NCBI GenBank assembly: GCA_043814605.1
Contig: JBDRJV010000013.1
Span: 34,471-98,470 of the forward strand
DNA: 64,000 nucleotides
Direction of reading: 5' to 3'
DNA from: Candidatus Omnitrophota bacterium
Lineage (GTDB): Bacteria; Omnitrophota; Gorgyraeia; B26-G9
The number at the start of each line of letters is the position of its first letter. The stretch's first letter is position 1. Under the pieces are notes generated by a model. It was given only the letters and a program-made list of their open reading frames with translations, was not told the DNA's origin and searched no databases. Positions 4,940 to 51,385 of the stretch are shown piece by piece. The position numbers and the translations under genes are program-made.

Positions 4940-5893
4940 GTGACTCTAATGAAAACAGCATACTGTGAAATCGGTGCTTTTGTTGGTAATCCTAATCATC
5001 GTCCGCCGAATGCAAAGGAAATCCGTGAATATGAACAGTTAATCGCCAGGCATATTCATTCAGTTTTATTTTTTTGGGCCTGGGGTGAGGGGGCTTTTCC
5101 CAAAACTGCTTTAAAGGATATCCGTTACCACGACGGATATGATACAGGGATAAATTTACATGTTACTTGGGAACCCTGGAAACGTAAAGGGTTTAATGAT
5201 AATTCCTACAGCCTTAATAGCATTATTAAGTGTGAACATGACCTATATATTTCAAAGTTTGCTCGTGATTGCCGTGACTGGAGTGATGTTATCCGCCTGC
5301 GCTTTGCGCATGAAATGATCCATTTTAATAATCCATCAACCCAAGGCTGGTACCCCTGGCAAGATAAACCGGAGGAATATGTAAGAGCCTGGAAACATAT
5401 ATACGGTATATTTAAAAATGAAAAAGCAGATAATGTGGAATTTGTCTGGGCACCATTAAATTACCCTGACTGGTTCGATGTCTTAGAGCAATATTATCCG
5501 GGAAAAGAATATGTAGACTGGCTGGGTATTGACGGTTACAACTGGGGCGAAGACGGTAAGCCGGCCTGGCCTTATGATCAAAATTTTAGCGATTTATTTT
5601 ATCCTATGTACCATGCTTTTATTGATCATCCAGAAATTTTCGGACAGAAAAAGATAATGATATCTGAAACAGCCAGCCCTAAAGATAATCAATTTGGGGG
5701 AAATAAATCCACCTGGATTGAGGATATGTTCAAGCGCCTTAAAAACGAATATTCAAAAATTGAAGCATTTTACTGGTTTAATGCAAAAAAGGAAAAAGAT
5801 TGGCGGGTAAACTCATCTCCCCTAAGCCTGGCTGCTTTTAAAAACAGCATCCAAGACCCTTATTTTACTTCTCATATTATTCGCAATCTTTAA
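4940..5893 (+). CDS. Glycoside hydrolase family 26-like (mannanase-like), no signal peptide
   Basis: RFAHEMIHFN matches GH26 acid/base motif (R-x-x-HE-x-N); second glutamate in MISETA; W/Y-rich TIM-barrel motifs WLGIDGYNW. Confidence 0.55.
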   Translation: MTLMKTAYCEIGAFVGNPNHRPPNAKEIREYEQLIARHIHSVLFFWAWGEGAFPKTALKDIRYHDGYDTGINLHVTWEPWKRKGFNDNSYSLNSIIKCEHDLYISKFARDCRDWSDVIRLRFAHEMIHFNNPSTQGWYPWQDKPEEYVRAWKHIYGIFKNEKADNVEFVWAPLNYPDWFDVLEQYYPGKEYVDWLGIDGYNWGEDGKPAWPYDQNFSDLFYPMYHAFIDHPEIFGQKKIMISETASPKDNQFGGNKSTWIEDMFKRLKNEYSKIEAFYWFNAKKEKDWRVNSSPLSLAAFKNSIQDPYFTSHIIRNL

Positions 5894-23158: not shown

Positions 23159-24430
23159 TTAGGATTTACTGGGTTTTACTGGTTGAGGGATTATATTCCC
23201 AATGAAAAATTCATCCACTAGATGCCCGAATTTTAGATAAATTTTATCGTTATTTATTTTTAGAATTGTATATTCATTAACTGTTTGTCCGGGGCGATAA
23301 GGCTTACCAGAAATCATCACAAAAGGATCTTCCTGATCGTACATGATACCTTCAATTTTTTCTTGATGAGTAAATGTCAGCAAAGCTGATGATTTATAAT
23401 CTAAAGGGTTTTTTAGCACTTCGTAATAAAACCGTAATCTGGGATATACCGGATTATTTTTATCGCAATATTTTAAAGCCTTTCGTAAAGGCTCTTTTGC
23501 TTGGCTGTACTCACGAATATTCATATAAGCAATCCCTATGTTGACATGGGCTCCCCAGTGTTTTCTTTCAAGTTCTAATGCTTTTTTTGCATAAGCAATT
23601 GATTCTCGAAAATCTCGCACGTCTTTATTACTAACATACACGGGGATACCTTTTTCCATATAACATTCACTCAAGAAGTAATACAAATCCGCCTGCAGCT
23701 TTTTAGTTGGTTCTCGTTCAAGAAGGGATTGAAATACCATAATTGCCTGATCATATCTGCCAATATTATAATATTTTTCTCCCCTATTCACCAAAGCCAT
23801 CTCCTCAGCTGATGTAAAATAGTTTTTAGTATCGTCGCTGTTTTCCTCCTGTGAAAGCCTCTTAACTTCTTCTAAATTAATACTATCTAAAAAAGCATTC
23901 ACCCCTCCATCCCCTTGGAGCTTGGCAAAACTTTCTTTTGTCCCCGCAACATAACATTCAATTAATCGAGGGCTTTTATCTTCCTTGGCCACATATTGTC
24001 TGATTTTAAGGGAAACTTTTTTCCCCTGATAAGAGATGCTATCTTCAGTTTCTAATAGATGCCAATTAAACATTTTTGTCGAGAACGTCATTATCTTTTT
24101 TGTTTCGTATCTCTGCTTCTGTTTAGCCTTTTGTTTATCCCTAAGCCAGGCCATAGCACTTTTTCTCGGAACATAGAGGGTTCTTAAATATATCTCAAAC
24201 AATCCCCCCTGATTTTGAAAACGAAAAGCATAATCATAGGTATAATCATCCTGACTTTCAATCCTTTCCCAATGTACCGGCTTTTTAAAAGTCAGCTTTT
24301 TAAGTGAGGTTATGTCGTACTGTACTGCACAGGAAATCAGGCTGCCAGTAAAAATAATAATTACAAATATGAATAATATTCTTTTCATTGATTTATCCTT
24401 AAAAGAAATTCTTAAAAAAAATTGTAGCAT
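23159..24430 (-). CDS. TPR-repeat protein with N-terminal signal/anchor
   Basis: TPR-like repeats (YNIGRYDQAIMVFQSLLE, ..NIGIAYMNIREYSQAKEPLRKAL). Confidence 0.6.
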   Translation of the reverse strand: MLQFFLRISFKDKSMKRILFIFVIIIFTGSLISCAVQYDITSLKKLTFKKPVHWERIESQDDYTYDYAFRFQNQGGLFEIYLRTLYVPRKSAMAWLRDKQKAKQKQRYETKKIMTFSTKMFNWHLLETEDSISYQGKKVSLKIRQYVAKEDKSPRLIECYVAGTKESFAKLQGDGGVNAFLDSINLEEVKRLSQEENSDDTKNYFTSAEEMALVNRGEKYYNIGRYDQAIMVFQSLLEREPTKKLQADLYYFLSECYMEKGIPVYVSNKDVRDFRESIAYAKKALELERKHWGAHVNIGIAYMNIREYSQAKEPLRKALKYCDKNNPVYPRLRFYYEVLKNPLDYKSSALLTFTHQEKIEGIMYDQEDPFVMISGKPYRPGQTVNEYTILKINNDKIYLKFGHLVDEFFIGNIIPQPVKPSKS

Positions 24431-28784: not shown

Positions 28785-28925
28785 TATTCCTATTTGTCAA
28801 GTTGTTTTTACAAATAAAAAACCGTCCGGGTCTCCTCCCTGACGGTCTTAAGTCCTAATTAAATTCTACTCTTCAAAAAGTAACAGGTCAAGAAAAATGA
28901 ATTACCCCCCCCTCCTTTCATAATA

Positions 28926-28959
28926 AAAACCCCCTCACATTTCTGTGAGAGGTTTTTTA
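28926..28959. terminator. Bidirectional intrinsic terminator (aaaaaccccctcacatttctgtgagaggtttttt); identical copies at 33876..33910 and (degraded) 38896..38930
   Basis: 7-bp GC stem flanked by A-run and T-run. Confidence 0.7.
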
Positions 28960-28964
28960 TTATT

Positions 28965-29035
28965 GGCTCCCCGTATTACCTGTCCCCAGCGCTTGATTTG
29001 TAAGCAAATCAGCAGGGGGGACGAGTTTCGCAACT
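28965..29035 (-). repeat. Module Y: TGGCTCCCCGTATTACC + long hairpin (gtcccc-agcgcttgatttg-taa-gcaaatcagc-aggggggac) + gagtttcgcaac; copy at 38935..39010, variant at 30531..30640
   Basis: Near-identical 75-nt sequences at the two loci. Confidence 0.8.
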
Positions 29036-29113: not shown

Positions 29114-29644
29114 TTATAATTTTATCGCTTTCTTTATCTTATAATTCTTTTTTGTTAAATAATTTCCTAATGCTATCGAAGTTATAATAACCAAAGGCAA
29201 AGATATCAATAGCCTTATTGCTGTAAATTTGAGCCCGACAAAAGACGCTTCAAATACTGTCATCGGTACCCTTGTAATGGCGGATGCTCCGAGAAACGTA
29301 AAAATAACGCTTAACTTTGCGCCTTTGTTGTATAAAGCGTGTGCTATGGGCAAAGCCACATATAAACCGCCGATCATAGTCCCGGCAAGAAGTATAACCC
29401 AAAAATACCCCTTAACGCCTGAATCATCGCCTAAATGCTTTTCAACCGTTTCTTTCTTTACCCACACCTCAAACAACCCAATAAGAACAAACGCAAAAGG
29501 CAATACCTTAAACATATCTATAGCGAAAGATAAAAAATTCCGCCCGATCTCTTTCCCCGGGGCAAAACCAAAAGAAAACGAAATGATTAAAAACAAAAAG
29601 TAAGCACTGATCACAATATTTTTTATGGCATTCTCTTTTTTCAT
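29114..29644 (-). CDS. Membrane permease component (likely starts MKKENAI at 29644)
   Basis: Multi-TM; overlaps upstream gene by ATGA. Confidence 0.45.
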   Translation of the reverse strand: MKKENAIKNIVISAYFLFLIISFSFGFAPGKEIGRNFLSFAIDMFKVLPFAFVLIGLFEVWVKKETVEKHLGDDSGVKGYFWVILLAGTMIGGLYVALPIAHALYNKGAKLSVIFTFLGASAITRVPMTVFEASFVGLKFTAIRLLISLPLVIITSIALGNYLTKKNYKIKKAIKL

Positions 29645-30132
29645 CAGAAAATCTCCCCGAAAAAAATACCGGTCGCCAATGCCACGAGCAATGCGATACC
29701 AAAGCTGATCACATTTCGCATAACAGTCACCTTTAATCCGAAATATTCTTTCTCTATCGGATATGTGAGCACCCCAATCATCATCAAAGTAGTGGTAAAA
29801 GCAGACAAAACCATATAAGAAACTCCTTGTTTCAATAAAATTCCACACAAGGGGAAAACTATGAATCCAGGCACCAGCGTTATAGAGCCAAAAAAAGAGG
29901 CAAAAAGAACACCACGTAATTGGCTACCATCCCCCAGATAACTTAAAAGAACTTTATTAGGAAAAACAAAAAGAACGATTGAGGTAAGAATGAGCATCAT
30001 TAAGAAAGCAGGAAAAATATTTACAAATTTCCTAAAAGCTATTTTAGCCGCTTTAAGCGTTTTCTCGCGACTTGTAATAAAGGAAACCAGCACTATTAAC
30101 CCTGTTATTGCATATAACCCTAATATCCTCAA
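29644..30132 (-). CDS. Membrane permease component (paired with 29114..29644)
   Basis: Multi-TM 162 aa. Confidence 0.45.
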   Translation of the reverse strand: MRILGLYAITGLIVLVSFITSREKTLKAAKIAFRKFVNIFPAFLMMLILTSIVLFVFPNKVLLSYLGDGSQLRGVLFASFFGSITLVPGFIVFPLCGILLKQGVSYMVLSAFTTTLMMIGVLTYPIEKEYFGLKVTVMRNVISFGIALLVALATGIFFGEIF

Positions 30133-30485: not shown

Positions 30486-30527
30486 AAAAACCCCTTGCAA
30501 CTGAATAAGCCACAAGGGGTTCAAAAA
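30486..30527. terminator. Intrinsic terminator (aaaaaccccttgcaactgaataagccacaaggggttcaaaaa)
   Basis: ccccttg...caagggg stem with flanking A/T runs. Confidence 0.6.
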
Positions 30528-30530
30528 TAC

Positions 30531-30745
30531 TGGCTCCCTGTATTATCTGTCCCCAGCGCTTGATTTGCCTTCCTTTTCCTGTATTAAATTTTATTTATGC
30601 AAAATTTGCAGGAGTCAATCAGCCGGGGAGACTAGTTTCGCCCCTTGAAATTGCTAAGCAATTTCAGGGACTAACGTCCTGGGAATCCAGAGGATTCCAC
30701 AGGGTCAGTTTTTCAAGAAAAAAATAATCCTGACTTTTTATTGTA
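30531..30745 (-). repeat. Composite repeat: Y-module variant (loop insertion) fused to X-module
   Basis: tggctccctgtattatctgtccccagcgcttgatttg...aatcagccggggagactagtttcgcc + gaaattgctaagcaatttcagggactaacgtcctgggaatccagaggattccacaggg. Confidence 0.8.
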
Positions 30746-30816: not shown

Positions 30817-32778
30817 TTAAATAGCCTGTTCAAAAAACTGGTTTGATTGGAAATTGACAACCTTCGAAAAACTATTCAGTGGAATTTTATTATCCACAAA
30901 TAATTTTTCTAGATACTGCTGTGTATACTTAAGCATCTTTTCGGGGAATTTTTTTCTTCTTAATATCTGCAGAGTATTTGTCTCTTCCCATTTTAAAGAA
31001 CCTGGACGTAATTTATAATCGCGTATTGCTTCTCCATCTTGGGTTGATCCTTCCTTAAAGTGCATATTTTTAATATTTTTAATTTCATCAACTAAAGTTA
31101 TAATACTCAAATCCTGCGTAGCTACCAGTCCCAACACATTCTGTTCAGCAAGAAGCTTTATTGCTGCTTTCTGGGTAACTGTTCTGTTTGTCGGTTCTGT
31201 CCCTTCAAACATCTCATCCCCCACAAAAGCAAAAATTGTCTTTTTCCCCTGCATTGCAGCCATAATATGATCAAGCATACGGTCAGATTCAACATCAAAT
31301 TTACTCATATCCTCAGCCAAAGAATCTTCGGTATTAATATGAGTACGGATATATACAGGAGTAAAATCCATGTTTTCTGCTGTGACAGGACTTCCAATCT
31401 GAGCCATAACTAAAAGCAATGCATACATTTTTAAAATAGTTGTCTTCCCGTTCATGTTCGGACCAGTAATGGTTAAAAAACTAGTTTCATCAGGATCAAG
31501 AACAATAGAGTTTGGCTCGATTAATTGCCTTAAAACATGTAGGGGGTGTATCGCATTTTGAATATTAACGTAAGGATTATCCTGTTCTAGAACTTTAGGA
31601 AATATATTAATTTGATGGTCTACTGCATTCTGCGCTATTGCTGTATAAGCATCTAATTCTGCTACTGCCCCAAAAATTCGTTTAAATTCATCCTCTTTTT
31701 TATTAAGCAACCGGCTTAATCCCTCATAACTTCTATTCTTAATACAATCTACCAAGCTAAAAGCATGTTTTTTATCTCTTAAAGCACTTAAAGTTTCTAC
31801 AATCTCTTCTAACAAAGGTAATCCCTCTATTTGAGGATATTCTTTTAAAACTTTCTTAAGTAAATATGCTTTATCTGTAAAATTAAGTAGGGCTGATTTT
31901 GCGTCCTTCATCTCCATAAGCATAGGGAAAAAAACAAATATCGCAAACATGGATATTGCAAAAATAAATATGTTGATATGTAAAGATACTGCTAATATGC
32001 CTAAATAAACATACATTATTTTAACAAAACTCTTGATTGACGGCTTTTTCTTTAAAATATTAAAAGCATACTTATCATCTGTATTTTTTAAAATTTCATT
32101 TAATGATTGCCGCAGTTCTTCATTTTTTATCAAAAAAGCCACTACTTTTTGACGCTGTTTTATATGTTCTGTATCTAAAAAAGGATTGCATAATAACCGC
32201 TTAAACCGCAGATCTCCAAGATAAGTCTTTGTCCGGTTAAAATAATTATACAAAGAAAATTCTCCTTTACTGATTATCTCTAAATCTAAAATATCACGTA
32301 TACTTAAGGGATCATGTAAAAATTCTTTTCGGTAAACAATTCCGCCATTTTCAAGCGCAGGATAATCTTCTACTTGTGGTTTTTTGTACAAGGCGGTTTT
32401 TCCTTTTCCTTTATCAATCTTTAGAGGAGCTGGCATATGTTTCTCTAATTCGTTCTGTAAATCAATTTCTCCTTCTTTTTTGCGAAATTTATACCAAGTT
32501 GTACCCACCATAAACGCAAATATAAAAATAGATATATTAATCAATCCGAAAGTCATTATTTGCATAACTAATAATGCTATCGTGCCAGACGAAATAAAAG
32601 CAAATTTCAAATATAAAAATGATACAGAAACCATCATTAACCCAGGAATCAAAAAAAACCATTTCTTTTTCTTTTTTGTCTGAGTAATATGATCTTTTAA
32701 CTTTTTCTCAGCTCGAGCAATATCATTCATTTTTAATTCTGTAACTTCTTCAGCAGTTAACGCAAGTAATTTGTCCAT
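30817..32778 (-). CDS. MutS-related protein (MutS domain V ATPase) with N-terminal TM segments
   Basis: ITGPNMNGKTTILKMYALLLVMAQIGSPV Walker A; DE...Walker B. Confidence 0.75.
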   Translation of the reverse strand: MDKLLALTAEEVTELKMNDIARAEKKLKDHITQTKKKKKWFFLIPGLMMVSVSFLYLKFAFISSGTIALLVMQIMTFGLINISIFIFAFMVGTTWYKFRKKEGEIDLQNELEKHMPAPLKIDKGKGKTALYKKPQVEDYPALENGGIVYRKEFLHDPLSIRDILDLEIISKGEFSLYNYFNRTKTYLGDLRFKRLLCNPFLDTEHIKQRQKVVAFLIKNEELRQSLNEILKNTDDKYAFNILKKKPSIKSFVKIMYVYLGILAVSLHINIFIFAISMFAIFVFFPMLMEMKDAKSALLNFTDKAYLLKKVLKEYPQIEGLPLLEEIVETLSALRDKKHAFSLVDCIKNRSYEGLSRLLNKKEDEFKRIFGAVAELDAYTAIAQNAVDHQINIFPKVLEQDNPYVNIQNAIHPLHVLRQLIEPNSIVLDPDETSFLTITGPNMNGKTTILKMYALLLVMAQIGSPVTAENMDFTPVYIRTHINTEDSLAEDMSKFDVESDRMLDHIMAAMQGKKTIFAFVGDEMFEGTEPTNRTVTQKAAIKLLAEQNVLGLVATQDLSIITLVDEIKNIKNMHFKEGSTQDGEAIRDYKLRPGSLKWEETNTLQILRRKKFPEKMLKYTQQYLEKLFVDNKIPLNSFSKVVNFQSNQFFEQAI

Positions 32779-33313
32779 ACTGGGATTAATTGCTGGCTTA
32801 TTTTTTCTTGAAGAAAAACTATCTCAATGGTTTGCTAAGAATTATTCTTTGGTTAATATCTATTACTACGGGGGAATCCATTCTGAAAAATCATTCTTTG
32901 ATTCTCACTCCGAATATAAAAACAATACCAGCTCTGTAAACCATTTTCTCCTCAAACAATACAGAAAAGATAAAGAAAGATTTTTCAAAAAATTAAAAAG
33001 CTATAATATTATTGTGAGACAAAAAGAAATCTGGAGTGTTTATGATAATACAAAAGGAACTTATAACCTAAAATGTAATTGTGATGTTGAACTAACAGTT
33101 GATGCTCTCGACAGAATTCAAGATTATCAACAAATAATTCTTTGTAGTGGAGACGGAGATTTTGCGAGATTAATACGCTACTTAAAAAATAAAGGTAAGA
33201 TTACAACCGTTTTATCAATAAAGCAAAGAACTTCTGGAATACTCAAAAAGGCTACAAATAACTTGATTTATCTTCATACGCTAAAACACTTAATCGAGTT
33301 TACCCGTCCTTAA
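32771..33313 (+). CDS. NYN-domain (LabA-like PIN-fold) protein, possibly N-terminally degenerate
   Basis: CDVELTVDALDRIQDYQQIILCSGDGDFARLIRYLKNKGKITTVLS matches NYN C-terminal half. Confidence 0.5.
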   Translation: MSILGLIAGLFFLEEKLSQWFAKNYSLVNIYYYGGIHSEKSFFDSHSEYKNNTSSVNHFLLKQYRKDKERFFKKLKSYNIIVRQKEIWSVYDNTKGTYNLKCNCDVELTVDALDRIQDYQQIILCSGDGDFARLIRYLKNKGKITTVLSIKQRTSGILKKATNNLIYLHTLKHLIEFTRP

Positions 33314-33711: not shown

Positions 33712-33860
33712 TATTCTGATTCCCACTCGGACTCGGCGCCTCCGCCTACGCAGAAGCTCCGGCTCCGGTCGGCCAGTCAACCGCTGACAGCCGGTCTTCG
33801 ACTTACGGCCTTTTCCTCCCTTAGGTCGGCGCGGTCTCAATTCGAGTCCTCACAGCAGTG
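33712..33860. repeat. GC-rich ~145-bp repeat Z (copy of 42215..42357), ends with tRNA-Asn T-arm-like ttcgagtcctc
   Basis: cgctcggactcggcgcctccgcctacgcag...ggtcggcgcggtctcaattcgagtcctcacagca ~93% identical between copies. Confidence 0.8.
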
Positions 33861-34128
33861 AAAACCAAACAATAATAAAAAACCCCTCACATTTCTGTGA
33901 GAGGTTTTTTATTATTGGCTCCCCGTGCCCCCTAAAAGACCGAACTTTTCTGTGATTTTTTACGCAGGACTTACACTTTCACGACAAGGAAATAGGTTTA
34001 AGGTAGTCTTTCCAACCGAATAAGATTATGATTAAATGTAAATTTTTAAAAGGTTTTTATTGAAATTGCTTTCAGTAAGGTAGACATCCTTTCTGATGTC
34101 CTTTTATTTTTATACATAGATACGTCAT

Positions 34129-36999
34129 CTAACTCTGCTTATGCATGTCTATACCTTGCATAAGTTCATACGCTATATTTCCACTCACCAAACGCATAAT
34201 ACTTTCTTCCGAACTGCCAAAACTTAGTAAATTAATACTGCCATACCAAACAATCTTTTGATCTATAACCGCAAATTTCTGATGTATCTTCGGCCGGAAC
34301 ATGATAGTAATCCCGACAGCTTGAAGTACTTTGCATGCCTGTTGTGACGCTAATCTATTGTCTTCTTTTAACTCCTCGGCTGGTCTCGTTATTATTGTAA
34401 TTCCAACCTGTCTGGTTAAGGGATCAGAGAGATTTTGCATAATTTGATTAACCCGTCGCTGAGTAATAAAAGGACTCACAATTACAATTTCTTTTTTTGC
34501 ACTTATTAAGTCATTGCAATAAACAGGGAAAAATGAGCTCTTATCAAAAATAATATCAGTAGTTTGCCCAATACTTTCCCCTTGAGACTTATACCCGATA
34601 GCAGCATAACCAGTTAATCTTTTAGCATACATTTTCTCAAGCATTCTAACTCTGACATCAACATAATCGTAAATTTGAACATGTTTTTTAGTCTCATATA
34701 TTCTATGCAGTCTTCCCGCGTATTGATGCAAAGTTCCTTTCCATGAAATAGGCATAGCAAGAAACAATGTATCCAATCGAGGAGCATCAAACCCTTCTCC
34801 AATAAACGTACCTGTTGCAACTATGGTTAACTGCTTTTCCTGAGACATTGCGGCTATCCGCCTCAATAAGTCATTTGTTTCTTTAGCCCCTAAGCCCCCT
34901 CTCAATACGACAACATCAGGAATTTTCATTGCCAATTTTTTTGCCAGCAGTTCCACATGTGCTGTCCGTCCTGTAAGTACCACGCAATTCCGGCCATTTT
35001 CATAACTATTAATCACATCATCAACAATCAATTGATTGCGCATTTCATCAACTGTCATCTCAGCGTATAATTCTTGAATAGATACTGTTGTATCATCAGA
35101 GGCCGCGATCCTGAAACCGGTGAATCGTGGGATAACGTAATGCTCGAAAGGCCTTTGTTCCGCTTGTTTTTTTGCGTCAACTTTATAACGGATCGGCCCG
35201 CAATGCATAAATAGTATAGGCTGGTGACCATCCTGTCTTGTAGGAGTTGCCGTTAAGCCATACACATATTTAGCGTTCACCTTTTTAAGTATCTGCTCAA
35301 AACTGAATGCCGGAATATGATGGCACTCATCAACAATGACCATTCCGTAGTTTTTGACAGTTTCCTTTACCTCTCCAGCATCATTTAGTGACTGCATTAT
35401 GGCAATATCAATAATACCCGACAGAGCATCTCTTCCTCCGCCCAATTGGCCAATAACACTTTGTTTTTTCTTTCTCCCTCTCTTTTTTTCTGGAACAGGT
35501 AATTTTTCATCAATGATTAAGAACTCCAGCAACCGGACAATCCATTGTAATAATAACTGATGGCGATGAACTAAAATAAGCGTGTTTACTTTTCGCTCGG
35601 CAATCAGCTTAGCGGCAATAACTGTTTTACCAAACGCTGTCGTTGCGGAAAGAATCCCGTTATTGAATTTCAGGAGCTCATCAACTGCTTGCTGTTGCTC
35701 TTCCTTTAAGACTCCTTTGAATTTAACCTTAATATCCTTTCCGCGATTAGTCTGATCATCCCAACACATTTCCACAGCATACTCATTAAGTAAAACATTA
35801 ATATCCTCCTCGCAACCTCTCGGCAAACACAAATAATTATTCTTATCTTCAAAACATGAGATTACTCGCGGTTTATTATAGGTAGGCATTCTCATTGCTT
35901 GAGCTTTGTAAAATTCCGGATTTCTAAAAGCAGATAACCTTTTCAAAGCATTTAAGGCGCGCGAAGAAAATCCCTCTTTATTAATATACAGCATGTCTGC
36001 TTTTACAATAACCGTCTGCTTAGGATGGCCTGCTTTGGTCAATCTGATCCTGTTTTTCAACCACGGCTTTTCTTCATCTTCAGCTTCTCTAAGCACGCCC
36101 AATTCATTACCCGCGCAAAGTTTACTTATGAATGATTCTACGGTATCTCCTGAGAGCTTCTTTATCAAGGACAAAAATCCCCATTGATCTTCATAGGGGT
36201 TAAATTTCTCATCAATAAAAATACTGTGACCGGCTTTCCTGGCATCCAGTTGAAGTGGAAGTGCGATTAAATTTCCCATACCGCCTTTCGGCATTGTATC
36301 TTGATTTGGGAAAAACCTGTCATATGATGCAAAGGCTATTTCATGGCGTTTATTCATCGCATAGGTGATCACTGCGCTGCCAAATTTTCTGGCCAGTGCT
36401 GCAGGCAGGCACTCTTCAAAAAGAAACCACACATGCGCGCCATTTCCTGATCGTGAACGTTCTACCGCCATGGGAATATTGAATTCTCGACAAACTTCTC
36501 TTACTACCGAAACATCCTTCTCCCATCCGGTATCATCAAAATCAATCACCAGAAAATAACAATTTTCATCTGGAAGCAGCGGATAAATGCCGATAACCAG
36601 ACCGCCTCGCAAATGATTTTCAATGGCCTGCGCATCTAATTGTGCGTACAATTTATATTCACAATCTGCACACCTGGTCTTTGGTTTACCACATATTACT
36701 CTTTGCCATTCATTCAAACAGACCGGAGAATATCCTGACCTTCCCGCTTTATTCTGCCAGCGCTTAGCATATACATCATCACGGCCTCTAAATAAACTGC
36801 GAAATAACTGTATTTTTTCATTATTTGATAGCTGTTGAGAAATCAAAGGATTTTTTACAATAGTTGGCGAAGTAGGGGGCAGGCTTGATAGCTTTTTAAT
36901 AAGCTTATGTTTCTTTTCTTTTAACGATGAAATCTGAGTATCAATATCATTTATTTCATTTACAATATTCTTCTTGATATCGTCATAACTATAATTCAT
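34129..36999 (-). CDS. Three-domain fusion: N-terminal AEP primase-polymerase (PrimPol)-like domain + SF2 helicase (ResIII/DEAH) + C-terminal PLD-family nuclease
   Basis: AEP motif I LVIDFDD, motif II SGNGAHVWFLF, Zn-finger C..C...C..C; helicase Walker A ATTAFGKTV and VIVDECHH; PLD HxK motif KIHQKFAVID..GSINL. Confidence 0.65.
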   Translation of the reverse strand: MNYSYDDIKKNIVNEINDIDTQISSLKEKKHKLIKKLSSLPPTSPTIVKNPLISQQLSNNEKIQLFRSLFRGRDDVYAKRWQNKAGRSGYSPVCLNEWQRVICGKPKTRCADCEYKLYAQLDAQAIENHLRGGLVIGIYPLLPDENCYFLVIDFDDTGWEKDVSVVREVCREFNIPMAVERSRSGNGAHVWFLFEECLPAALARKFGSAVITYAMNKRHEIAFASYDRFFPNQDTMPKGGMGNLIALPLQLDARKAGHSIFIDEKFNPYEDQWGFLSLIKKLSGDTVESFISKLCAGNELGVLREAEDEEKPWLKNRIRLTKAGHPKQTVIVKADMLYINKEGFSSRALNALKRLSAFRNPEFYKAQAMRMPTYNKPRVISCFEDKNNYLCLPRGCEEDINVLLNEYAVEMCWDDQTNRGKDIKVKFKGVLKEEQQQAVDELLKFNNGILSATTAFGKTVIAAKLIAERKVNTLILVHRHQLLLQWIVRLLEFLIIDEKLPVPEKKRGRKKKQSVIGQLGGGRDALSGIIDIAIMQSLNDAGEVKETVKNYGMVIVDECHHIPAFSFEQILKKVNAKYVYGLTATPTRQDGHQPILFMHCGPIRYKVDAKKQAEQRPFEHYVIPRFTGFRIAASDDTTVSIQELYAEMTVDEMRNQLIVDDVINSYENGRNCVVLTGRTAHVELLAKKLAMKIPDVVVLRGGLGAKETNDLLRRIAAMSQEKQLTIVATGTFIGEGFDAPRLDTLFLAMPISWKGTLHQYAGRLHRIYETKKHVQIYDYVDVRVRMLEKMYAKRLTGYAAIGYKSQGESIGQTTDIIFDKSSFFPVYCNDLISAKKEIVIVSPFITQRRVNQIMQNLSDPLTRQVGITIITRPAEELKEDNRLASQQACKVLQAVGITIMFRPKIHQKFAVIDQKIVWYGSINLLSFGSSEESIMRLVSGNIAYELMQGIDMHKQS

Positions 37000-37008
37000 A
37001 ATTTAAAG

Positions 37009-38454
37009 TTAAAGGACTTCCCAATACCCGCCTTTTGCCGGGCCGATGCGCTTTAATAATTTTGCCTTCTTTAGTTTGGCAATAGCATTTTCTACTGTCC
37101 TTTGGGATAAGTTGGTTGCACCAGCTATTTCATGTGTTTTGATGAAATAGTTTTTCTGAATACATCGCAAAACTTTCTCCGCATTTTCTCCGCATTTTCT
37201 CCGTATTTCCACCGTAATTTTTAACTCTTTTCCCGCAACCTTTTTAACAGGCTTATCTTGTGGTTTATCTTTTTTCTCCAAATAAAATGTTATCTTATAA
37301 TAGTCAAAATCTCCTTCGACTTTAGGTTTTCCTTCATAATAAGCAGCCCAGCCCTTAAACATCTTATGAAAGCCTGAGCCGATATTCTCGGAAAGTTTTA
37401 TTGTCCTAAAAATCCTTGCGATGGTATTGTTTCTCGGCATGGAGAATTCTTCTTTTAAGATATACTTTATGTCCTTAGGTAATGAGCCCGGATTGAAAAA
37501 CTCTATCCTGTTGGAAAGAATTCTTATTCTCGGTTTGGCATTTGAAAAATAATCAGTGTGCATAAGAAGATTAACAAGAGCTTCGCGGATAGCTATAAAC
37601 TGCGGCGGATTCTCATCCCGAGACATTCCTTTAAGCTTAAATGGAATATTAATATGTTTTTTTAATTTTTCAAGAATTGAAAAATAATACTCATACAAAT
37701 TCTTTTGAACAGGCATACGATATTCATATCGGTTATCCGCATCAGAAAAAGAAGTGCCCGACACCTCAAGATATTCCACCCTGAAATCTGAAGCTGCCGC
37801 ATTTACGATTTCTTCTGTGCCAAAAACAAGCGCTCCTCCCACAGTTACTTTGCCCTTTATAATGATCCTCATAAGCTCAAGCATTTTCTCTGCCGAAACA
37901 TCATTATATCGGTGCTCGGGGTCAACCGATTCCAAATATGTCCTGTATCGGGAAATAGTTTCTTTATCAAGATCTTTAAATCTATACCCGGTAAGTTCTT
38001 CATCTTTTTTATCAAAAGAAGAATTCCTGTATAATGCATCTATCTCTTCTTTCGTTGCCCGCTGATCGCCGCTGCCTGTACGAACAAACGTGTTTGCAAG
38101 AGAGTTGAAATAAATTGGCTTGTCTTTGGAATACACAGAAGGAATACGAAAAGCCAATATTGTATTCCCTGCAATTGAATATTTCTTGGACTCAACTGTT
38201 ATTTTTTTATTAAATTTATCGCCTCTTAACGTGGTAAGAAAATCCTGCTCTATTTTTTCCGGATTATTAACTCCAACAACAGAATATTCCTTGCCTTTCT
38301 TTGCTATGCCAAAAATCAGCCAGCCTCCGGCTGTATTGCAAAAAGCGCTTACTGTTTCCCATGCGTTTTTAGGAATAGCAGATTTGGCCTCCTTTACCTC
38401 AAAGTCCTGCCATTCAATATCCTGCAACCTCTTAATCAATTCCTGTTTTTTCAT
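37009..38454 (-). CDS. Schlafen/AlbA_2 (divergent AAA-4) DNA-binding domain + HATPase_c_4-like + C-terminal wHTH transcriptional regulator
   Basis: FEVKEAKSAIPKN...NTAGGWLIFGI; C-terminal RTVENAIAKLKKAKLLKRIGPAKGGYWEV. Confidence 0.6.
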   Translation of the reverse strand: MKKQELIKRLQDIEWQDFEVKEAKSAIPKNAWETVSAFCNTAGGWLIFGIAKKGKEYSVVGVNNPEKIEQDFLTTLRGDKFNKKITVESKKYSIAGNTILAFRIPSVYSKDKPIYFNSLANTFVRTGSGDQRATKEEIDALYRNSSFDKKDEELTGYRFKDLDKETISRYRTYLESVDPEHRYNDVSAEKMLELMRIIIKGKVTVGGALVFGTEEIVNAAASDFRVEYLEVSGTSFSDADNRYEYRMPVQKNLYEYYFSILEKLKKHINIPFKLKGMSRDENPPQFIAIREALVNLLMHTDYFSNAKPRIRILSNRIEFFNPGSLPKDIKYILKEEFSMPRNNTIARIFRTIKLSENIGSGFHKMFKGWAAYYEGKPKVEGDFDYYKITFYLEKKDKPQDKPVKKVAGKELKITVEIRRKCGENAEKVLRCIQKNYFIKTHEIAGATNLSQRTVENAIAKLKKAKLLKRIGPAKGGYWEVL

Positions 38455-38606
38455 AATTAATCAATCTTAATCCTATGTATTAATAAACTTTTCTGCGGCT
38501 TTTACCTGTGCCTGAAATGGATATCCATGATAAAATTTTATCATCAACTTAAAAAAGATTCAATTTATTTCATCTAAAAACGCAACAATAGCAAATAGAT
38601 ATGATT

Positions 38607-38825
38607 TTACTCTTCGCTATGCTTTTTATTTTTATTCTTTTCATCTTCGCTTTCTTTTTCCTTTTTGCTTTTAAAATAAAGATATGCCCCTTTGGCGAGC
38701 AGTTCGCCAATTCTATTGATCCGTTCATCTATTGTTAAACAAAAATATTTATTCATCACAACCCCTGTAAAATCATATTTGTTTAAAAAGTTCGAATTTT
38801 CATCGACTCCCTCAATTGCCCTCAA
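38607..38825 (-). CDS. Small hypothetical protein
   Basis: ORF only. Confidence 0.2.
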   Translation of the reverse strand: MRAIEGVDENSNFLNKYDFTGVVMNKYFCLTIDERINRIGELLAKGAYLYFKSKKEKESEDEKNKNKKHSEE

Positions 38826-39161
38826 TATCCGAACTTTTTATATCTCTTCCCAAATGCACATTATAACTCATTATATTACAGCAAGTAAGCATAAATAAAA
38901 AGCCCCTCCCATTTCTGTGAGAGGTTTATTATTTTGGCTCCCCGTATTACCTGTCCCCAGCGCTTGATTTGTAAGCAAATCAGCATGGGGGACGGACGAG
39001 TTTCGCAACTGGATACAACTGAATAAAATACCGCAAGAGATAAACTGCCTCTAGATTATAAGAATGGCAAATGAACTGGAAAAATTAAATATAATTCGAC
39101 TCTGAGCGAAGTGATTAAGCATTATTGTCGACAAAGAATTTTGAAAATGAAAAATGAAAAT

Positions 39162-50089: not shown

Positions 50090-50330
50090 AATAAGTAACT
50101 CCTACGGTTACCTTTGTATAACATTTATACATAAGCTAGAATACCATATTTTTGGTTATTGTCAATACTATTATTTAAGCCTGAATTCCATATTTTCATT
50201 TTCGAAAATACCTTCAGAAGGGATTTACAGGAAGGAAAATTACAACAAAACAACTTAAAAGGCCCTAAAAATACAAAGAGCGAACAACGCAATGAAGCAT
50301 TATTCGCTCAGAGTATGAATTGGCTCCCCT

Positions 50331-50555
50331 ACCCATAGTTTTGATTCTCAAAACAGGCATGGGCACAGGCGCGAGGACTCGGCTACTACACTCCCAACAT
50401 CGTGTTGGTCTATTGCGTAGCCTCCCCTACATTCACTAAATTTGCAGTCCACGCCCAGTACCGTCCCGCCTTGGCGGGACTGGTTCTGGGCTGCAAATTT
50501 GAGCTCCCACTTGGTCGCTCCGTTCACTCCGCTTCGATTCCTAGCCCGGGATGAT
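50331..50555 (-). ncRNA. ~235-nt GC-rich structured repeat element, copy G
   Basis: See 40309..40545; lies between AbiEi promoter region and tRNA-Asn terminator. Confidence 0.4.
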
Positions 50556-50599: not shown

Positions 50600-50640
50600 T
50601 GGCTCCCCCGCGAGGACTCGAACCTCGGACAAATTGGTTA

Positions 50641-51212
50641 CAGGTAATCTCTAAGTTTCCTTAAAGCCTGGACTATCTCATCTCCATATTTGCAAAAGCA
50701 AGTTTAGGAGCTGGGCGCTTCGTACCGCTCTCGCGGAACTACTTCCTTCCGGAATAGTCTCTGCACCTTTCCGCCAAAAAACTTGGCGGACTTGGCTCAG
50801 GATTCCCTTATGGTTTTCTAACTTACCACTTAGGCTTTCCTGAGTTCACCCAGTTTTTCATCTTAATGTTTCCATTAAGCGCTGCTATTTTTGGCATGAA
50901 TTTCTCGATGACAATTAGCACAAACTAATTCACATTTTTCAATTTCATCCTTAACTTTTTTCCAAGAACGAGTATACCCTTTTTGGGATATACCAAAATC
51001 CTTGTCTGATTCGTTAATATGATGAAATTCTAATGCTTCAGGACAATTATTGTAACCGCAAATTTTACATTTTCCGCCTTTATATTCAACAGCTTTAATG
51101 CGTAAATTTTTACGGCGTTTGCGCACAGCTTCGATTAAATAATCTCTTCTATCCGCATATTTCCTTTTGTCCTTAATTAGCGCCAAAAGCACCTCCTTTT
51201 CACACCCTGACT
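50641..51212 (-). mobile_element. Group-I-like intron with HNH homing-endonuclease ORF inserted in tRNA-Asn anticodon loop
   Basis: Exon 1 ends in U, intron ends in G; 3' part has P7-like CAGAGACUA...UAGUUCC and GNRA (GGAA) P8-like hairpin; ORF with RBS inside. Confidence 0.5.
50875..51192 (-). CDS. HNH endonuclease (intron-encoded, GTG start)
   Basis: CKICGYNNCPEALEFHHINE...CANCHREIH. Confidence 0.8.
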   Translation of the reverse strand: MLLALIKDKRKYADRRDYLIEAVRKRRKNLRIKAVEYKGGKCKICGYNNCPEALEFHHINESDKDFGISQKGYTRSWKKVKDEIEKCELVCANCHREIHAKNSSA

Positions 51213-51385
51213 ACAGCCAATCGCTCTACCAACTGAGCTACAGGGGAACCGATAAATCAGCTATTAGCTCATGGCTTATAGCTCATAGATAAAAAGAACA
51301 ATACTTCTAAAAATCATGGGGGAACCTAAAAACAGTCTTAAGTTTTAAGACTTGAGTTTTAAGTTATAAAAAGAACAAATTACAA

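What the first reader, a model, noticed from the sequence alone, without database searches (positions are those of the whole stretch)
34129..38454. PrimPol(AEP) - SF2 helicase - PLD nuclease fusion, paired with a Schlafen/AlbA_2-HATPase-wHTH regulator
The 956-aa protein carries three enzymatic modules in one chain. First, AEP primase-polymerase motifs I (LVIDFDD) and II (SGNGAHVWFLF), preceded by a Cys4 zinc finger. Second, an SF2 helicase core (GKT Walker A, DECH box). Third, a C-terminal phospholipase-D-family HxK nuclease motif (KIHQKFAVID...GSINL). Helicase+PLD nucleases occur in defence systems and AEP+helicase occurs in plasmid/phage replicases. I do not recall this three-module combination as a described system. 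It sits in a defence island bounded by tRNA-derived repeats and is immediately downstream (9-nt gap) of an AlbA_2/Schlafen-type regulator. That regulator class frequently controls defence loci. It could be a novel anti-phage effector or a selfish replicative module.
Basis: partly seen in the sequence, partly recalled or inferred. Interest (0 to 1): 0.8.

Follow-up and report, generated by a model that had tools for sequence, protein, structure and literature searches.

The report
IEE-type primase-helicase with PLD nuclease
The 956-aa protein is real and apparently intact, but it is a member of a large, already catalogued family (relatives of the E. coli IS-excision enhancer IEE, Pfam "AEP-TOTE") that carries an extra nuclease domain, and its Schlafen-type neighbour is a local companion rather than a conserved partner.

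Summary
ORF 34129-36999(-) encodes a 956-aa protein with a Cys4 zinc finger, a PrimPol-type AEP, a UvsW/XPB-like SF2 DEAH helicase and a Nuc-like single-HKD PLD nuclease. A 481-aa AlbA_2/HATPase_c_4/wHTH gene lies 9 nt upstream. Every catalytic motif is invariant in 120 homologs.

The combination is not new. The AEP matches Pfam PF22548 "AEP-TOTE" (E 1.5e-100). The protein aligns with E. coli O157 IEE (IS-excision enhancer, a studied MMEJ polymerase/ATPase) at 43% identity over 756 residues. IEE lacks the PLD.

The same three-domain architecture occurs in all 120 listed relatives (8000+ candidates) and in at least 541 species genomes. Of 48 full-length family representatives, 20 carry the PLD.

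No neighbour is conserved across 80 loci, and no TPR-OB or TBP gene recurs. The Schlafen gene is adjacent only in two near-identical strains (92-93% AEP protein identity). There the pair forms a ~5-kb cassette with sharp repeat-marked ends.

Most likely it is a stand-alone, horizontally mobile, IEE-like DNA-end and branch processing enzyme with its own nuclease, acting against mobile DNA. Verdict: new member of a known kind, with low to moderate interest.

The parts
34129..36999 (-). 956-aa ORF: IEE-family AEP primase-polymerase, SF2 helicase and C-terminal PLD nuclease
   Evidence: BLASTP to E. coli IEE: 43% identity over residues 57-804.
36886..36987 (-). N-terminal long helix (residues 5-38), a coiled-coil and candidate dimerisation element
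   Evidence: AF2 model shows helix 5-38. Weak coiled-coil Pfam hits. L12/Y16/L19/N23/L26/L33 are invariant or nearly invariant.
36661..36720 (-). Cys4 zinc finger (C94, C103, C110, C113)
   Evidence: Invariant in 120 homologs and in IEE.
36133..36819 (-). AEP/PrimPol catalytic domain (residues 61-289; D153, D155, H189, D227)
   Evidence: PF22548 E 1.5e-100. PADLOC PrimPol profile E 4.7e-93. CAPP Prim-Pol 7NQD E 1.5e-10 by sequence and TM 0.71-0.75 by fold. Catalytic residues invariant.
35725..36027 (-). Beta-rich domain preceding the helicase core (residues ~325-425), shared with IEE. It may correspond to the N-terminal DNA-binding domains of XPB/UvsW.
   Evidence: Aligned with IEE. Conserved 'link' HMM found in PLD+ and PLD- relatives. 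Foldseek alignments to XPB/UvsW are longer than the RecA core. The equivalence to those domains is inferred.
34585..35724 (-). SF2 DEAH helicase/translocase core (residues 426-805; K458, DECH 557-560, R763/R766)
   Evidence: ResIII, DEAD and Helicase_C. XPBII 2e-17. UvsW and XPB are the top fold hits. Motifs invariant.
34156..34518 (-). Single-HKD PLD nuclease domain (residues 828-948; H906, K908, D913, G920, S921, N923)
   Evidence: PLDc_2 E 3e-12. MkoC and DrmC PLD profiles. AF2 model pLDDT 83, best fold matches NucT, Nuc and Zucchini. Motif invariant, or 119 of 120 for S921 and N923.
37009..38454 (-). 481-aa AlbA_2 (Schlafen-type) / HATPase_c_4 / wHTH protein, probably co-transcribed with the 956-aa ORF; a lineage-specific companion
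   Evidence: Adjacent to the AEP gene only in L001 and L084.
33870..33926 (-). D4 repeat copy 2: a 20-bp-stem terminator hairpin plus ACGGGGAGCCA. It is the 3' boundary of the two-gene cassette.
   Evidence: Synteny with L001 and L084 ends here.
38892..38946 (-). D4 repeat copy 3: the 5' boundary of the cassette
   Evidence: L084 homology starts at 38894. L001 joins the copy-2 end to this point.
33930..33949 (-). AAAAGTTCGGN6RGGG motif at the 3' end of the cassette
   Evidence: Only two matches in the 64 kb window, both inside the cassette ends; 0.03 expected by chance.
38819..38838 (-). Second copy of the AAAAGTTCGGN6RGGG motif, about 55 nt inside the 5' end of the cassette

Best explanation
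Identity. The 956-aa ORF is a member of the IEE / 'Z1568-like' / Pfam AEP-TOTE family. It belongs to the large clade that carries a C-terminal Nuc-like PLD nuclease in addition to the IEE core. That core is a zinc finger, a PrimPol-type AEP, a DNA-binding beta domain and a UvsW/XPB-like SF2 motor.

Proposed mechanism (inferred).
1. The protein works as a homodimer. One HKD motif per chain gives half of a PLD active site, and the N-terminal coiled coil offers a second dimer contact.
2. The SF2 module binds and holds branched DNA or DNA with 3' tails. IEE shows DNA-dependent ATPase activity and synapsis without detectable unwinding.
3. The AEP extends 3' ends annealed at short microhomologies or after strand dislocation. 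IEE shows this Mn-dependent MMEJ activity.
4. The PLD dimer cuts or trims the DNA. This would supply in cis the nuclease step that the published IEE model assigns to unidentified cellular nucleases.

Biological role (inferred). It is a stand-alone, horizontally transferred conflict gene that acts on intermediates made by mobile DNA, such as transposition intermediates or replicating invaders. The outcome would be abortive processing, excision or destruction of that DNA.

In this genome it is co-transcribed with an AlbA_2/HATPase_c_4/wHTH protein. That protein may regulate or assist it locally but is not part of the conserved unit.
For: Shown here:
- Domain calls and E-values.
- 43% identity, colinear with IEE over 756 residues. 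IEE itself hits PF22548 at 1.7e-98 and has no PLD, in the protein or in the DNA downstream.
- The residues equivalent to IEE D142/D144/H178/D216 and K451, plus the DECH box, motif VI and the HKD motif, are invariant in 120 homologs.
- The PLD model matches the dimeric single-HKD nucleases NucT, Nuc and Zucchini. The helicase matches UvsW and XPB, and the AEP matches CAPP Prim-Pol.
- The N-terminal helix 5-38 is conserved.
- The family is large and split into two architectures. 1173 clusters at 50% identity have E<=1e-30. Of 48 full-length representatives, 20 are PLD+ and 28 PLD-. The PLD+ sequences mostly form one clade in a rough NJ tree.
- The gene stands alone. No neighbour family occurs in more than 13 of 80 loci. 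The 202 flanking proteins are a mix of TA, RM and Abi genes, SNF2, DUF4143 ATPases and housekeeping genes.
- Relatives from several phyla are 54-67% identical, which points to horizontal transfer under strong constraint.
- The window context is rich in defence and TA genes.

From the literature:
- IEE enhances transposase-dependent excision of copy-out-paste-in IS elements (bioRxiv 10.1101/2023.06.07.543989).
- IEE is a Mn-dependent error-prone polymerase whose MMEJ needs both domains. It has a DNA-dependent ATPase and no detected unwinding. The published model invokes unidentified nucleases (PMC9943667).
- AEP-TOTE is named for the TOTE conflict systems.
Against: - No experiment exists on any PLD-bearing member in the library searched.
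- The in vivo substrate of IEE itself is still debated.
- No transposase or integrase was seen next to the 80 PLD+ loci. A dedicated link to IS elements is therefore not visible in gene neighbourhoods.
- Dimerisation, nuclease activity and its coupling to the polymerase are inferred, not shown.
- The full-length model has low inter-domain confidence (pTM 0.42).
- The paper that defines TOTE could not be read.
Confidence: 0.6

Rival explanations
1. A dedicated two-gene anti-phage system. The Schlafen/AlbA_2-HATPase_c_4-wHTH protein senses infection or regulates the locus, and the AEP-helicase-PLD protein is its effector.
For: - The genes are 9 nt apart on the same strand, and the scan found no terminator between them.
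- The pair is kept as a unit in L001 and L084.
- A split AlbA_2/HATPase_c_4 gene lies just downstream of the AEP gene in one Bacillota locus, L047.
- The window setting is a defence island.
Against: - The partner is absent from 77 of 80 AEP loci. In two more (L057, L072) it is 5 kb or further away.
- 22 of the 23 metagenome loci found with the 481-aa protein (relatives 42-81% identical) show no AEP match.
- The ten genes scanned downstream of those relatives include an IS200-like gene, LigA, a TrxB-like gene, an Mrr-type endonuclease, a type ISP RM enzyme and further Schlafen copies.
- L001 and L084 are near-identical strains (about 90-92% nucleotide identity), so they are not independent evidence.
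Confidence: 0.12
2. A host DNA-repair enzyme: an end-joining or fork-processing factor analogous to LigD (polymerase plus nuclease) or XPB-Bax1 (motor plus nuclease), with no special link to mobile DNA.
For: - IEE performs MMEJ in vitro.
- The helicase resembles XPB, RadD and UvsW.
- A polymerase, a nuclease and a motor in one chain make a plausible end-processing kit.
Against: - The distribution is patchy and crosses phyla at about 60% identity.
- Neighbourhoods are variable and often rich in defence or TA genes.
- The family occurs on 120 plasmid records.
- No Ku or ligase partner recurs among the flanking genes.
- In this window the gene sits in a ~5-kb cassette that is found in different contexts.
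Confidence: 0.15
3. A replicative primase-helicase of a plasmid, ICE or other selfish replicon.
For: - AEP-helicase fusions are common replicases of mobile elements (established knowledge; PMC5862659).
- PLD-less relatives occur on 120 plasmid records, 50 of them conjugative.
- E. coli IEE lies in the integrative element SpLE1, two genes downstream of a DUF3987 protein.
Against: - The helicase is an XPB/UvsW-type SF2 enzyme, not a hexameric replicative helicase.
- IEE shows no unwinding.
- In the window, the flanks beyond the island hold core chromosomal genes (Fur, KatG, RecR, DnaX) and no replication or partition genes were found.
- Complete phage genomes show only helicase-level matches of about 25-27% identity.
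- An invariant nuclease motif is hard to explain for a replicase.
Confidence: 0.06
4. The gene, here together with the Schlafen-type gene, is itself a mobile cassette whose movement depends on the AEP-helicase-PLD protein.
For: - The same 4.98-kb unit (window 33919-38894) occurs at 91.9% identity in L084 with unrelated flanks.
- In L001 the end of one unit is joined head-to-tail to the start of a second, degenerate unit.
- The unit carries no recombinase.
- The motif AAAAGTTCGGN6RGGG occurs only at the two ends.
- In many locus pairs, nucleotide homology is confined to the AEP gene.
Against: - The boundaries coincide with repeated terminator-containing elements (D4), which could simply be recombination hot spots.
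- No target-site duplication or terminal inverted repeats were seen.
- Gene-only homology at about 80% identity is expected for any conserved gene in shuffled islands.
- No precedent exists for such a mechanism.
Confidence: 0.06

Closest known systems
E. coli O157:H7 IS-excision enhancer IEE (ECs_1305, NP_309332.1)
   Same: 43% identity and colinear over 756 residues. It shares the Cys4 finger, AEP motifs A, B and C, the linker domain and the SF2 DEAH core. Both hit PF22548 at about 1e-100.
   Different: IEE is 786 aa and ends about 10 residues after the helicase. It has no PLD domain and no PLD remnant downstream. IEE sits in the integrative element SpLE1 or on plasmids of Proteobacteria. The window protein belongs to the PLD+ clade found mainly in environmental anaerobes.
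TOTE (TPR, OB, TBP, Effector) conflict systems, Aravind, Iyer and Burroughs 2022
   Same: The AEP domain is the Pfam family named for these systems.
   Different: No TPR-OB/CSD gene and no TBP gene was found in the window, and none recurs in 80 related loci. Here the 'effector' stands alone. The defining paper could not be read.
CRISPR-associated Prim-Pol (CAPP, Marinitoga; PDB 7NQD-7NQF, 7P9J)
   Same: It is the closest solved AEP structure by sequence (E 1.5e-10) and by fold (TM 0.71-0.75). A PADLOC cas-associated PrimPol profile matches at 4.7e-93.
   Different: No cas genes or CRISPR array were found in the window. NCBIfam PrimPol_Msp scores 97 bits against a cut-off of 200. The fused domains differ.
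Defence PLD nucleases: Mokosh MkoC/MkoB, DISARM DrmC; and Nuc, NucT and Zucchini as structural models
   Same: The single-HKD PLD domain matches MkoC at 1.3e-14 and DrmC at 1e-6. The best fold matches are NucT, Nuc and Zucchini.
   Different: Only the ~120-residue PLD part matches. The rest of the MkoC and DrmC systems is absent.
Motor-plus-nuclease machines: archaeal XPB-Bax1, and SauUSI (PLD plus SF2 type IV restriction enzyme, PDB 7CLG)
   Same: It has an XPB-type SF2 core (E 2e-17) and matches the SauUSI helicase region (E 6e-7). In each case a translocase is combined with a nuclease.
   Different: Neither has a polymerase domain. The domain order differs, and there is no Bax1 homolog here.
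Bacterial NHEJ LigD
   Same: An AEP polymerase and a nuclease in one chain for end processing. IEE does MMEJ.
   Different: There is no ligase domain and no Ku partner. The AEP clade differs: Prim-Pol/Z1568-like rather than the NHEJ clade (PMC5862659).

Membership tests
Pfam PF22548 AEP-TOTE (= 'Z1568-like' AEP family, IEE family) | Profile match above the curated gathering score | tested here: met
   336 bits against a cut-off of 27, profile positions 1-229 of 230. IEE itself scores 329 bits.
Pfam PF22548 AEP-TOTE (= 'Z1568-like' AEP family, IEE family) | AEP catalytic motifs A (DxD), B (sxH) and C (hD), equivalent to IEE D142/D144/H178/D216 | tested here: met
   D153/D155, H189 and D227 are invariant in 120 homologs and aligned to IEE.
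IEE (IS-excision enhancer) sensu stricto | AEP fused to a C-terminal SF2 DEAH helicase, colinear over the full length | tested here: met
   43% identity across window residues 57-804 and IEE residues 45-776.
IEE (IS-excision enhancer) sensu stricto | Two-module architecture that ends after the helicase | tested here: not met
   The window protein has an extra PLDc_2 domain at 828-948. IEE has none, and there is no remnant downstream.
IEE (IS-excision enhancer) sensu stricto | Transposase-dependent enhancement of IS excision in vivo; Mn-dependent polymerase and MMEJ in vitro | not testable with these tools
   These are known for IEE only (PMC9943667; bioRxiv 10.1101/2023.06.07.543989).
TOTE conflict system (TPR, OB, TBP, Effector) | Neighbouring TPR-OB (S1/CSD) gene | tested here: not met
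   None was found among the larger ORFs scanned between 21 and 50 kb; the only TPR protein (23159-24430) is 10 kb away and shows no OB domain. None appears among families hit by 2 or more of 202 flanking proteins in 80 loci.
TOTE conflict system (TPR, OB, TBP, Effector) | Neighbouring TBP-domain gene | tested here: not met
   Same scans. Caveat: only the 25 commonest families per scan were listed, so a single occurrence could be missed.
TOTE conflict system (TPR, OB, TBP, Effector) | Effector carrying the AEP-TOTE domain | tested here: met
PLD-superfamily (HKD) nuclease, Nuc-like | HxK(x)4D(x)6GSxN motif | tested here: met
   H906, K908, D913 and G920 are invariant in 120 homologs; S921 and N923 are conserved in 119 of 120.
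PLD-superfamily (HKD) nuclease, Nuc-like | PLD fold closest to nucleases rather than to lipid enzymes | tested here: met
   Model pLDDT 83. The top hits are NucT 6EHI, Nuc 1BYR (TM 0.68/0.75, rmsd 2.5) and Zucchini.
PLD-superfamily (HKD) nuclease, Nuc-like | Homodimer forming one active site; nuclease activity | not testable with these tools
   Inferred from one HKD motif per chain and from the N-terminal coiled coil.
CRISPR-associated Prim-Pol (CAPP) | NCBIfam NF040561 score above cut-off, and adjacency to cas genes or a CRISPR array | tested here: not met
   97 bits against a cut-off of 200. No cas genes or array were found.
Mokosh type II (MkoC) / DISARM (DrmC) | Full-length match to the system protein, plus the other system genes | tested here: not met
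   Only the PLD part matches (MkoC profile positions 1002-1104 of 1136).
Conserved two-gene system with a Schlafen/AlbA_2-HATPase_c_4-wHTH partner | Partner gene adjacent in independent lineages | tested here: not met
   It is adjacent in L001 and L084 only (near-identical strains), and a split copy occurs in L047. It is absent or distant in the other loci.

The most novel reading that the evidence does not exclude
The ~5-kb unit (Schlafen-type gene plus AEP-helicase-PLD) could be an autonomous mobile cassette of a new kind. The primase-polymerase, motor and HKD nuclease would themselves carry out excision, copying and insertion. The IS-excision effect of E. coli IEE would then be a side-effect of that machinery acting on other elements. 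The evidence does not exclude this. The unit has identical, sharp ends in three different contexts, a head-to-tail junction in L001, no recombinase gene, and a motif found only at its two ends.
Probability: 0.06. Interest if true: 0.8.

Novelty: new member of a known kind. Interest (0 to 1): 0.3.

Why it matters
As a discovery claim it matters little: the architecture is common and already catalogued.

Two points are still useful.

1. The IEE papers read here treat IEE as a two-module AEP-helicase enzyme. They invoke unidentified cellular nucleases, and neither mentions a PLD or HKD domain. This analysis shows that a large sister clade (20 of 48 full-length representatives) carries an invariant Nuc-like nuclease in the same chain. 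That gives a direct handle on what the family does to DNA. It also links the 'IS-excision enhancer' and 'TOTE conflict system' labels to a single family.

2. The window shows the gene travelling with a Schlafen-type gene as a sharply bounded cassette. Whether that cassette is mobile can be tested.

Tried and rejected
- tRNA origin of the repeats. ARAGORN found no tRNA. Rfam found only a group I intron. Reading the sequence showed an intron-split tRNA-Asn. The repeats share only about 9-11 nt with its 3' end, so 'tRNA-derived' stays a possibility and not a result.
- A truncated PLD downstream of E. coli IEE: none found. IEE is therefore not simply an IS-truncated PLD+ gene.
- A conserved partner gene. 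Clustering 1112 ORFs from 80 loci and Pfam scans of 202 flanking proteins found none. The best candidates were a DUF4143-type ATPase (13 loci), an ABC ATPase (12 loci) and a SWIM-SNF2 helicase (11 loci).
- Transposases or integrases near the 80 loci. BLASTP with six E. coli and Bacillus queries gave no hits. This is a weak test because BLASTP is insensitive across phyla.
- Phage carriage. The INPHARED phage collection has only helicase-level matches. About two dozen IMG/VR viral contigs carry full-length relatives. The one examined (L116) looks like host DNA beside a prophage.
- The TOTE paper (Annu Rev Biomed Data Sci 2022) and Iyer et al. 2005 are not held in the library. Literature searches for an experimentally tested AEP-helicase-PLD defence gene found none.
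- An exact-sequence look-up of the window protein found nothing on record.
- The full-length AF2 model is too uncertain between domains (pTM 0.42) to say how the modules are arranged.

Full report
WHAT IS THERE. The window holds two co-oriented ORFs on the minus strand. One is 37009-38454 (481 aa) and the other is 34129-36999 (956 aa). They are separated by 9 nt, and the scan found no terminator in the gap. A strong hairpin terminator with a 20-bp stem lies about 210 nt after the second ORF, at 33870-33917. Promoter-like sites lie upstream of the first ORF. The pair therefore reads as one transcription unit.

Pfam assigns four domains to the 956-aa protein:
- AEP-TOTE (PF22548): residues 61-289, E 1.5e-100.
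- ResIII/DEAD: residues 431-588, E 3e-23.
- Helicase_C: residues 660-767.
- PLDc_2: residues 828-948, E 3e-12.

The 481-aa protein is SLFN_AlbA_2 plus HATPase_c_4 plus a winged HTH.

ARE THE MODULES LIKELY ACTIVE? I aligned the protein with the 120 best database relatives (58-92% identical) and with E. coli IEE. These residues are invariant:
- The four zinc-finger cysteines (C94, C103, C110, C113).
- AEP motif A (D153, D155), motif B (H189) and motif C (D227).
- Walker A K458, the DECH box (557-560) and motif VI (R763, R766).
- The HKD-motif residues H906, K908, D913 and G920. S921 and N923 are conserved in 119 of 120.

A structure model of the C-terminal 169 residues (mean pLDDT 83) is most similar to the dimeric single-HKD nucleases NucT, Nuc and Zucchini. 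The best PLD profile matches are the defence nucleases MkoC, MkoB and DrmC.

The helicase is of the XPB/UvsW type, and the AEP is closest to the CRISPR-associated Prim-Pol structure. The full-length model has good domains but an uncertain arrangement between them (pLDDT 74, pTM 0.42). It shows a conserved N-terminal helix at residues 5-38.

WHAT FAMILY IS IT? The Pfam family name refers to the 'TOTE' conflict systems. A 2025 preprint expands the acronym as TPR, OB, TBP, Effector and credits it to Aravind, Iyer and Burroughs 2022. I could not read the original paper.

A literature search led to E. coli IEE, the IS-excision enhancer. IEE is described as an AEP of the 'Z1568-like family' fused to an SF2 helicase. 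I fetched IEE from the Sakai chromosome (ECs_1305) and compared it directly:
- It is 43% identical and colinear over 756 residues, from the zinc finger to the end of the helicase.
- IEE hits PF22548 at 1.7e-98 and has no PLD domain.
- The DNA downstream of IEE holds no PLD remnant.

The window protein is therefore IEE plus a C-terminal nuclease.

HOW COMMON IS THE THREE-MODULE FORM?
- All 8000 candidates scored in the 5.8-billion-protein search passed E<=1e-10. The 120 listed are 940-1060 aa, apart from one partial sequence of 814 aa (P0004). All carry PF22548 and PF04851, and all but P0004 carry PF13091. They come from Omnitrophota, anammox Planctomycetota, Bacteroidota, Ignavibacteriota, Desulfobacterota, Bacillota and others.
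- NCBI names one listed homolog (P0044) 'TOTE conflict system archaeo-eukaryotic primase domain-containing protein'.
- At least 541 species-representative genomes encode a relative.
- A search of 1.84 billion cluster representatives with the AEP domain alone found 1173 clusters at E<=1e-30.
- Of 48 full-length representatives, 20 have the PLD and 28 lack it. In a rough neighbour-joining tree of the shared region, the PLD+ sequences, including the window protein, fall mostly in one clade.
- On sequenced plasmids the PLD-less form dominates: 120 records, most covering residues ~45-805. One clear PLD+ example occurs in Bacillus cereus, among IS4, Tn3 and IS231 transposases.
- Complete phage genomes show only distant helicase matches.
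- About two dozen IMG/VR viral contigs carry full-length PLD+ relatives. The one I examined appears to be host DNA beside a prophage.

IS THERE A CONSERVED PARTNER OR SYSTEM? I fetched 80 genomic loci with up to 10 kb of flank on each side, where the contig allowed. Findings:
- The 481-aa protein has an adjacent homolog only in L001, an Omnitrophota MAG whose AEP protein is 92% identical. Two other loci have distant copies 5 kb or more away. One Bacillota locus (L047) has a split AlbA_2/HATPase_c_4 gene just downstream.
- Clustering all 1112 flanking ORFs gave no family present in more than 13 loci. The most frequent were a DUF4143-type AAA ATPase, an ABC ATPase and a SWIM-SNF2 helicase.
- Pfam scans of the 202 nearest flanking proteins returned a mixture of AbiEii, HepT/MNT, PIN, HipA, Fic, restriction-modification genes, SNF2 helicases and ordinary metabolic genes. 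No recurrent TPR-OB, TBP, cas, transposase or integrase family appeared.

In the reverse direction, 23 metagenome loci encode relatives of the 481-aa protein. Only the 94%-identical one (L084) has the AEP gene. In the other loci the ten downstream genes I scanned include an IS200-like gene, LigA, a thioredoxin-reductase-like gene, an Mrr-type endonuclease, a type ISP RM enzyme and further Schlafen-type copies, sometimes in tandem. The pairing is therefore a feature of one lineage and not a conserved system. As a system, TOTE membership is not met either.

THE LOCAL SETTING. The gene pair lies in a variable region between core genes. Fur, AhpC and KatG lie on one side, and RecR and DnaX on the other. 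The region contains:
- a MutS-like ATPase and a NYN protein;
- an MNT/HEPN pair matching the PADLOC candidate PDC-M05;
- a Schlafen-group-3 (Nhi/AbiO-like) helicase fused to an S24 peptidase;
- a MazG-like protein;
- AbiEii/AbiEi.

'Defence island' is a fair description.

The pair sits exactly between two copies of a 55-nt repeat, D4, which is a terminator hairpin plus ACGGGGAGCCA. The metagenome contig L084 matches window 38894-33919 at 91.9% identity and is unrelated beyond both ends. L001 matches down to 33903 and then continues with the sequence that in the window lies just upstream of the Schlafen-type gene. That is a head-to-tail junction with a second, degenerate unit. A 20-nt motif, AAAAGTTCGGN6RGGG, occurs only twice in the 64 kb window, once at each end of the unit. 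The two genes thus behave as a discrete ~5-kb cassette. How it moves is unknown.

HOW IT MOST LIKELY WORKS. What is shown for IEE:
- It enhances transposase-dependent excision of IS elements that use copy-out-paste-in transposition.
- Its AEP is a Mn-dependent, error-prone polymerase.
- It joins 3' overhangs with at least 4 bp of homology, and this needs both domains.
- Its helicase part is a DNA-dependent ATPase without detectable unwinding.
- The published model needs unidentified nucleases to resect ends.

All the IEE catalytic residues are conserved in the window protein. I therefore infer the same core chemistry, with the PLD supplying the nuclease step in cis. Each chain has one HKD motif, so an active PLD site needs a dimer. 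The conserved N-terminal coiled coil fits that requirement.

Three observations point to a role in conflict with mobile DNA rather than housekeeping repair or replication: the gene stands alone, it is about 60% identical across phyla, and it sits in variable and defence-rich regions. These last steps are inference. No PLD+ member has been tested in the literature I could search.

RIVALS.
- A dedicated two-gene defence system with the Schlafen-type protein is disfavoured by the lack of conserved pairing.
- A host repair role is possible but fits poorly with the distribution.
- A replicase role is unlikely, given the SF2 XPB/UvsW-type motor, the invariant nuclease, the chromosomal setting without replicon genes and the absence from phage genomes.
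- The most novel reading still open is that the cassette is self-mobilising through this enzyme. I give it about 6%.

VERDICT. The sequence observation is right. The novelty claim and the claimed pairing with the Schlafen-type gene are not supported. This is a new member of a known, computationally described family with one biochemically studied relative. Interest is low to moderate. It rests on the uncharacterised PLD-bearing clade and on the sharply bounded cassette.

Noticed in passing
window 50600-51249 (-): An intron-split tRNA-Asn(GUU). The 5' exon (TCCCCTGTAGCTCAGTTGGTAGAGCGATTGGCTGT) lies at about 51247-51213. The group I intron (Rfam RF00028, 72 bits) lies at 50649-50926 and is preceded by an HNH-endonuclease ORF (50875-51192). 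The 3' exon ends in GGTTCGAGTCCTCGCGGGGGAGCCA at about 50600. ARAGORN misses this tRNA.
   Followed up: partly
window 40313-40544 and 50315-50553: Direct repeats of about 240 nt (96-99% identical) lie 10 kb apart. They bracket MNT/HEPN, several proteins of unknown function, the Schlafen-group-3 helicase-S24 gene, MazG and AbiEii/AbiEi. The second copy lies just 3' of the tRNA-Asn. This looks like the two ends of an island integrated beside the tRNA, although no integrase was found inside it.
   Followed up: no
window 33720-33857 and 42215-42352: A 138-nt GC-rich direct repeat (93% identical) in an AT-rich region. It contains a T-loop-like TTCGAGTCCT. One copy abuts the 3' end of the AEP cassette. 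Its nature is unknown, and it has no Rfam match.
   Followed up: no
window 28920-29023, 30521-30590, 33872-33926, 38892-38994: A family of boundary elements: a terminator hairpin plus ACGGGGAGCCA, with a further ~50-nt extension in some copies. They divide the left part of the island into blocks of 1.6, 3.3 and 5.0 kb: the ArsP-like permease; MutS-like plus NYN; and Schlafen-type plus AEP.
   Followed up: partly
L001:3844-4850 and L084:1-121, 5095-5381: The ~5-kb Schlafen+AEP unit occurs head-to-tail with a degenerate second copy in L001. In L084 it occurs in an unrelated flank. Both cases have the same end points as in the window.
   Followed up: partly
L004, L009, L013, L024, L061, L062, L066, L069 and others (cluster c3): A SWIM-zinc-finger SNF2 helicase of about 890 aa is in the neighbourhood in 11 of 80 loci from several phyla. 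It is often directly adjacent, upstream or downstream of the AEP gene. It is the most recurrent functionally suggestive neighbour of the AEP-helicase-PLD gene.
   Followed up: partly
L087, L089, L090, L097: Close relatives of the 481-aa AlbA_2/HATPase_c_4/wHTH protein occur as two to four copies on the same contig. This suggests a multi-copy family that expands locally.
   Followed up: no
window 30817-32778 (-) and 32771-33313 (+): A MutS-like ATPase (domains III and V only, 653 aa) and a NYN-domain protein are divergently oriented, and their start regions overlap by 8 nt. They occupy their own repeat-bounded block and could be another defence-type pair.
   Followed up: no
window 29114-30132 (-): An ArsP_1-type permease is split into two overlapping ORFs (244 and 162 aa). 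This is probably a frameshifted pseudogene.
   Followed up: no
P0127, P0162, P0206, P0234, P0141 (family representatives): Some family members carry extra domains: N-terminal Imm7, FMN_red, GNAT or PNP_UDP_1, and in one case the AEP is followed by a TraG-type P-loop in place of the SF2 helicase. Some of these may be gene-calling fusions.
   Followed up: no
window 37174-37208: An 11-nt tandem repeat (3.2 copies) lies inside the coding region of the 481-aa gene, in the linker before the wHTH. The L001 ortholog has a different repeat there (GSEIGSEIGSEI), so this linker varies by repeat expansion.
   Followed up: no
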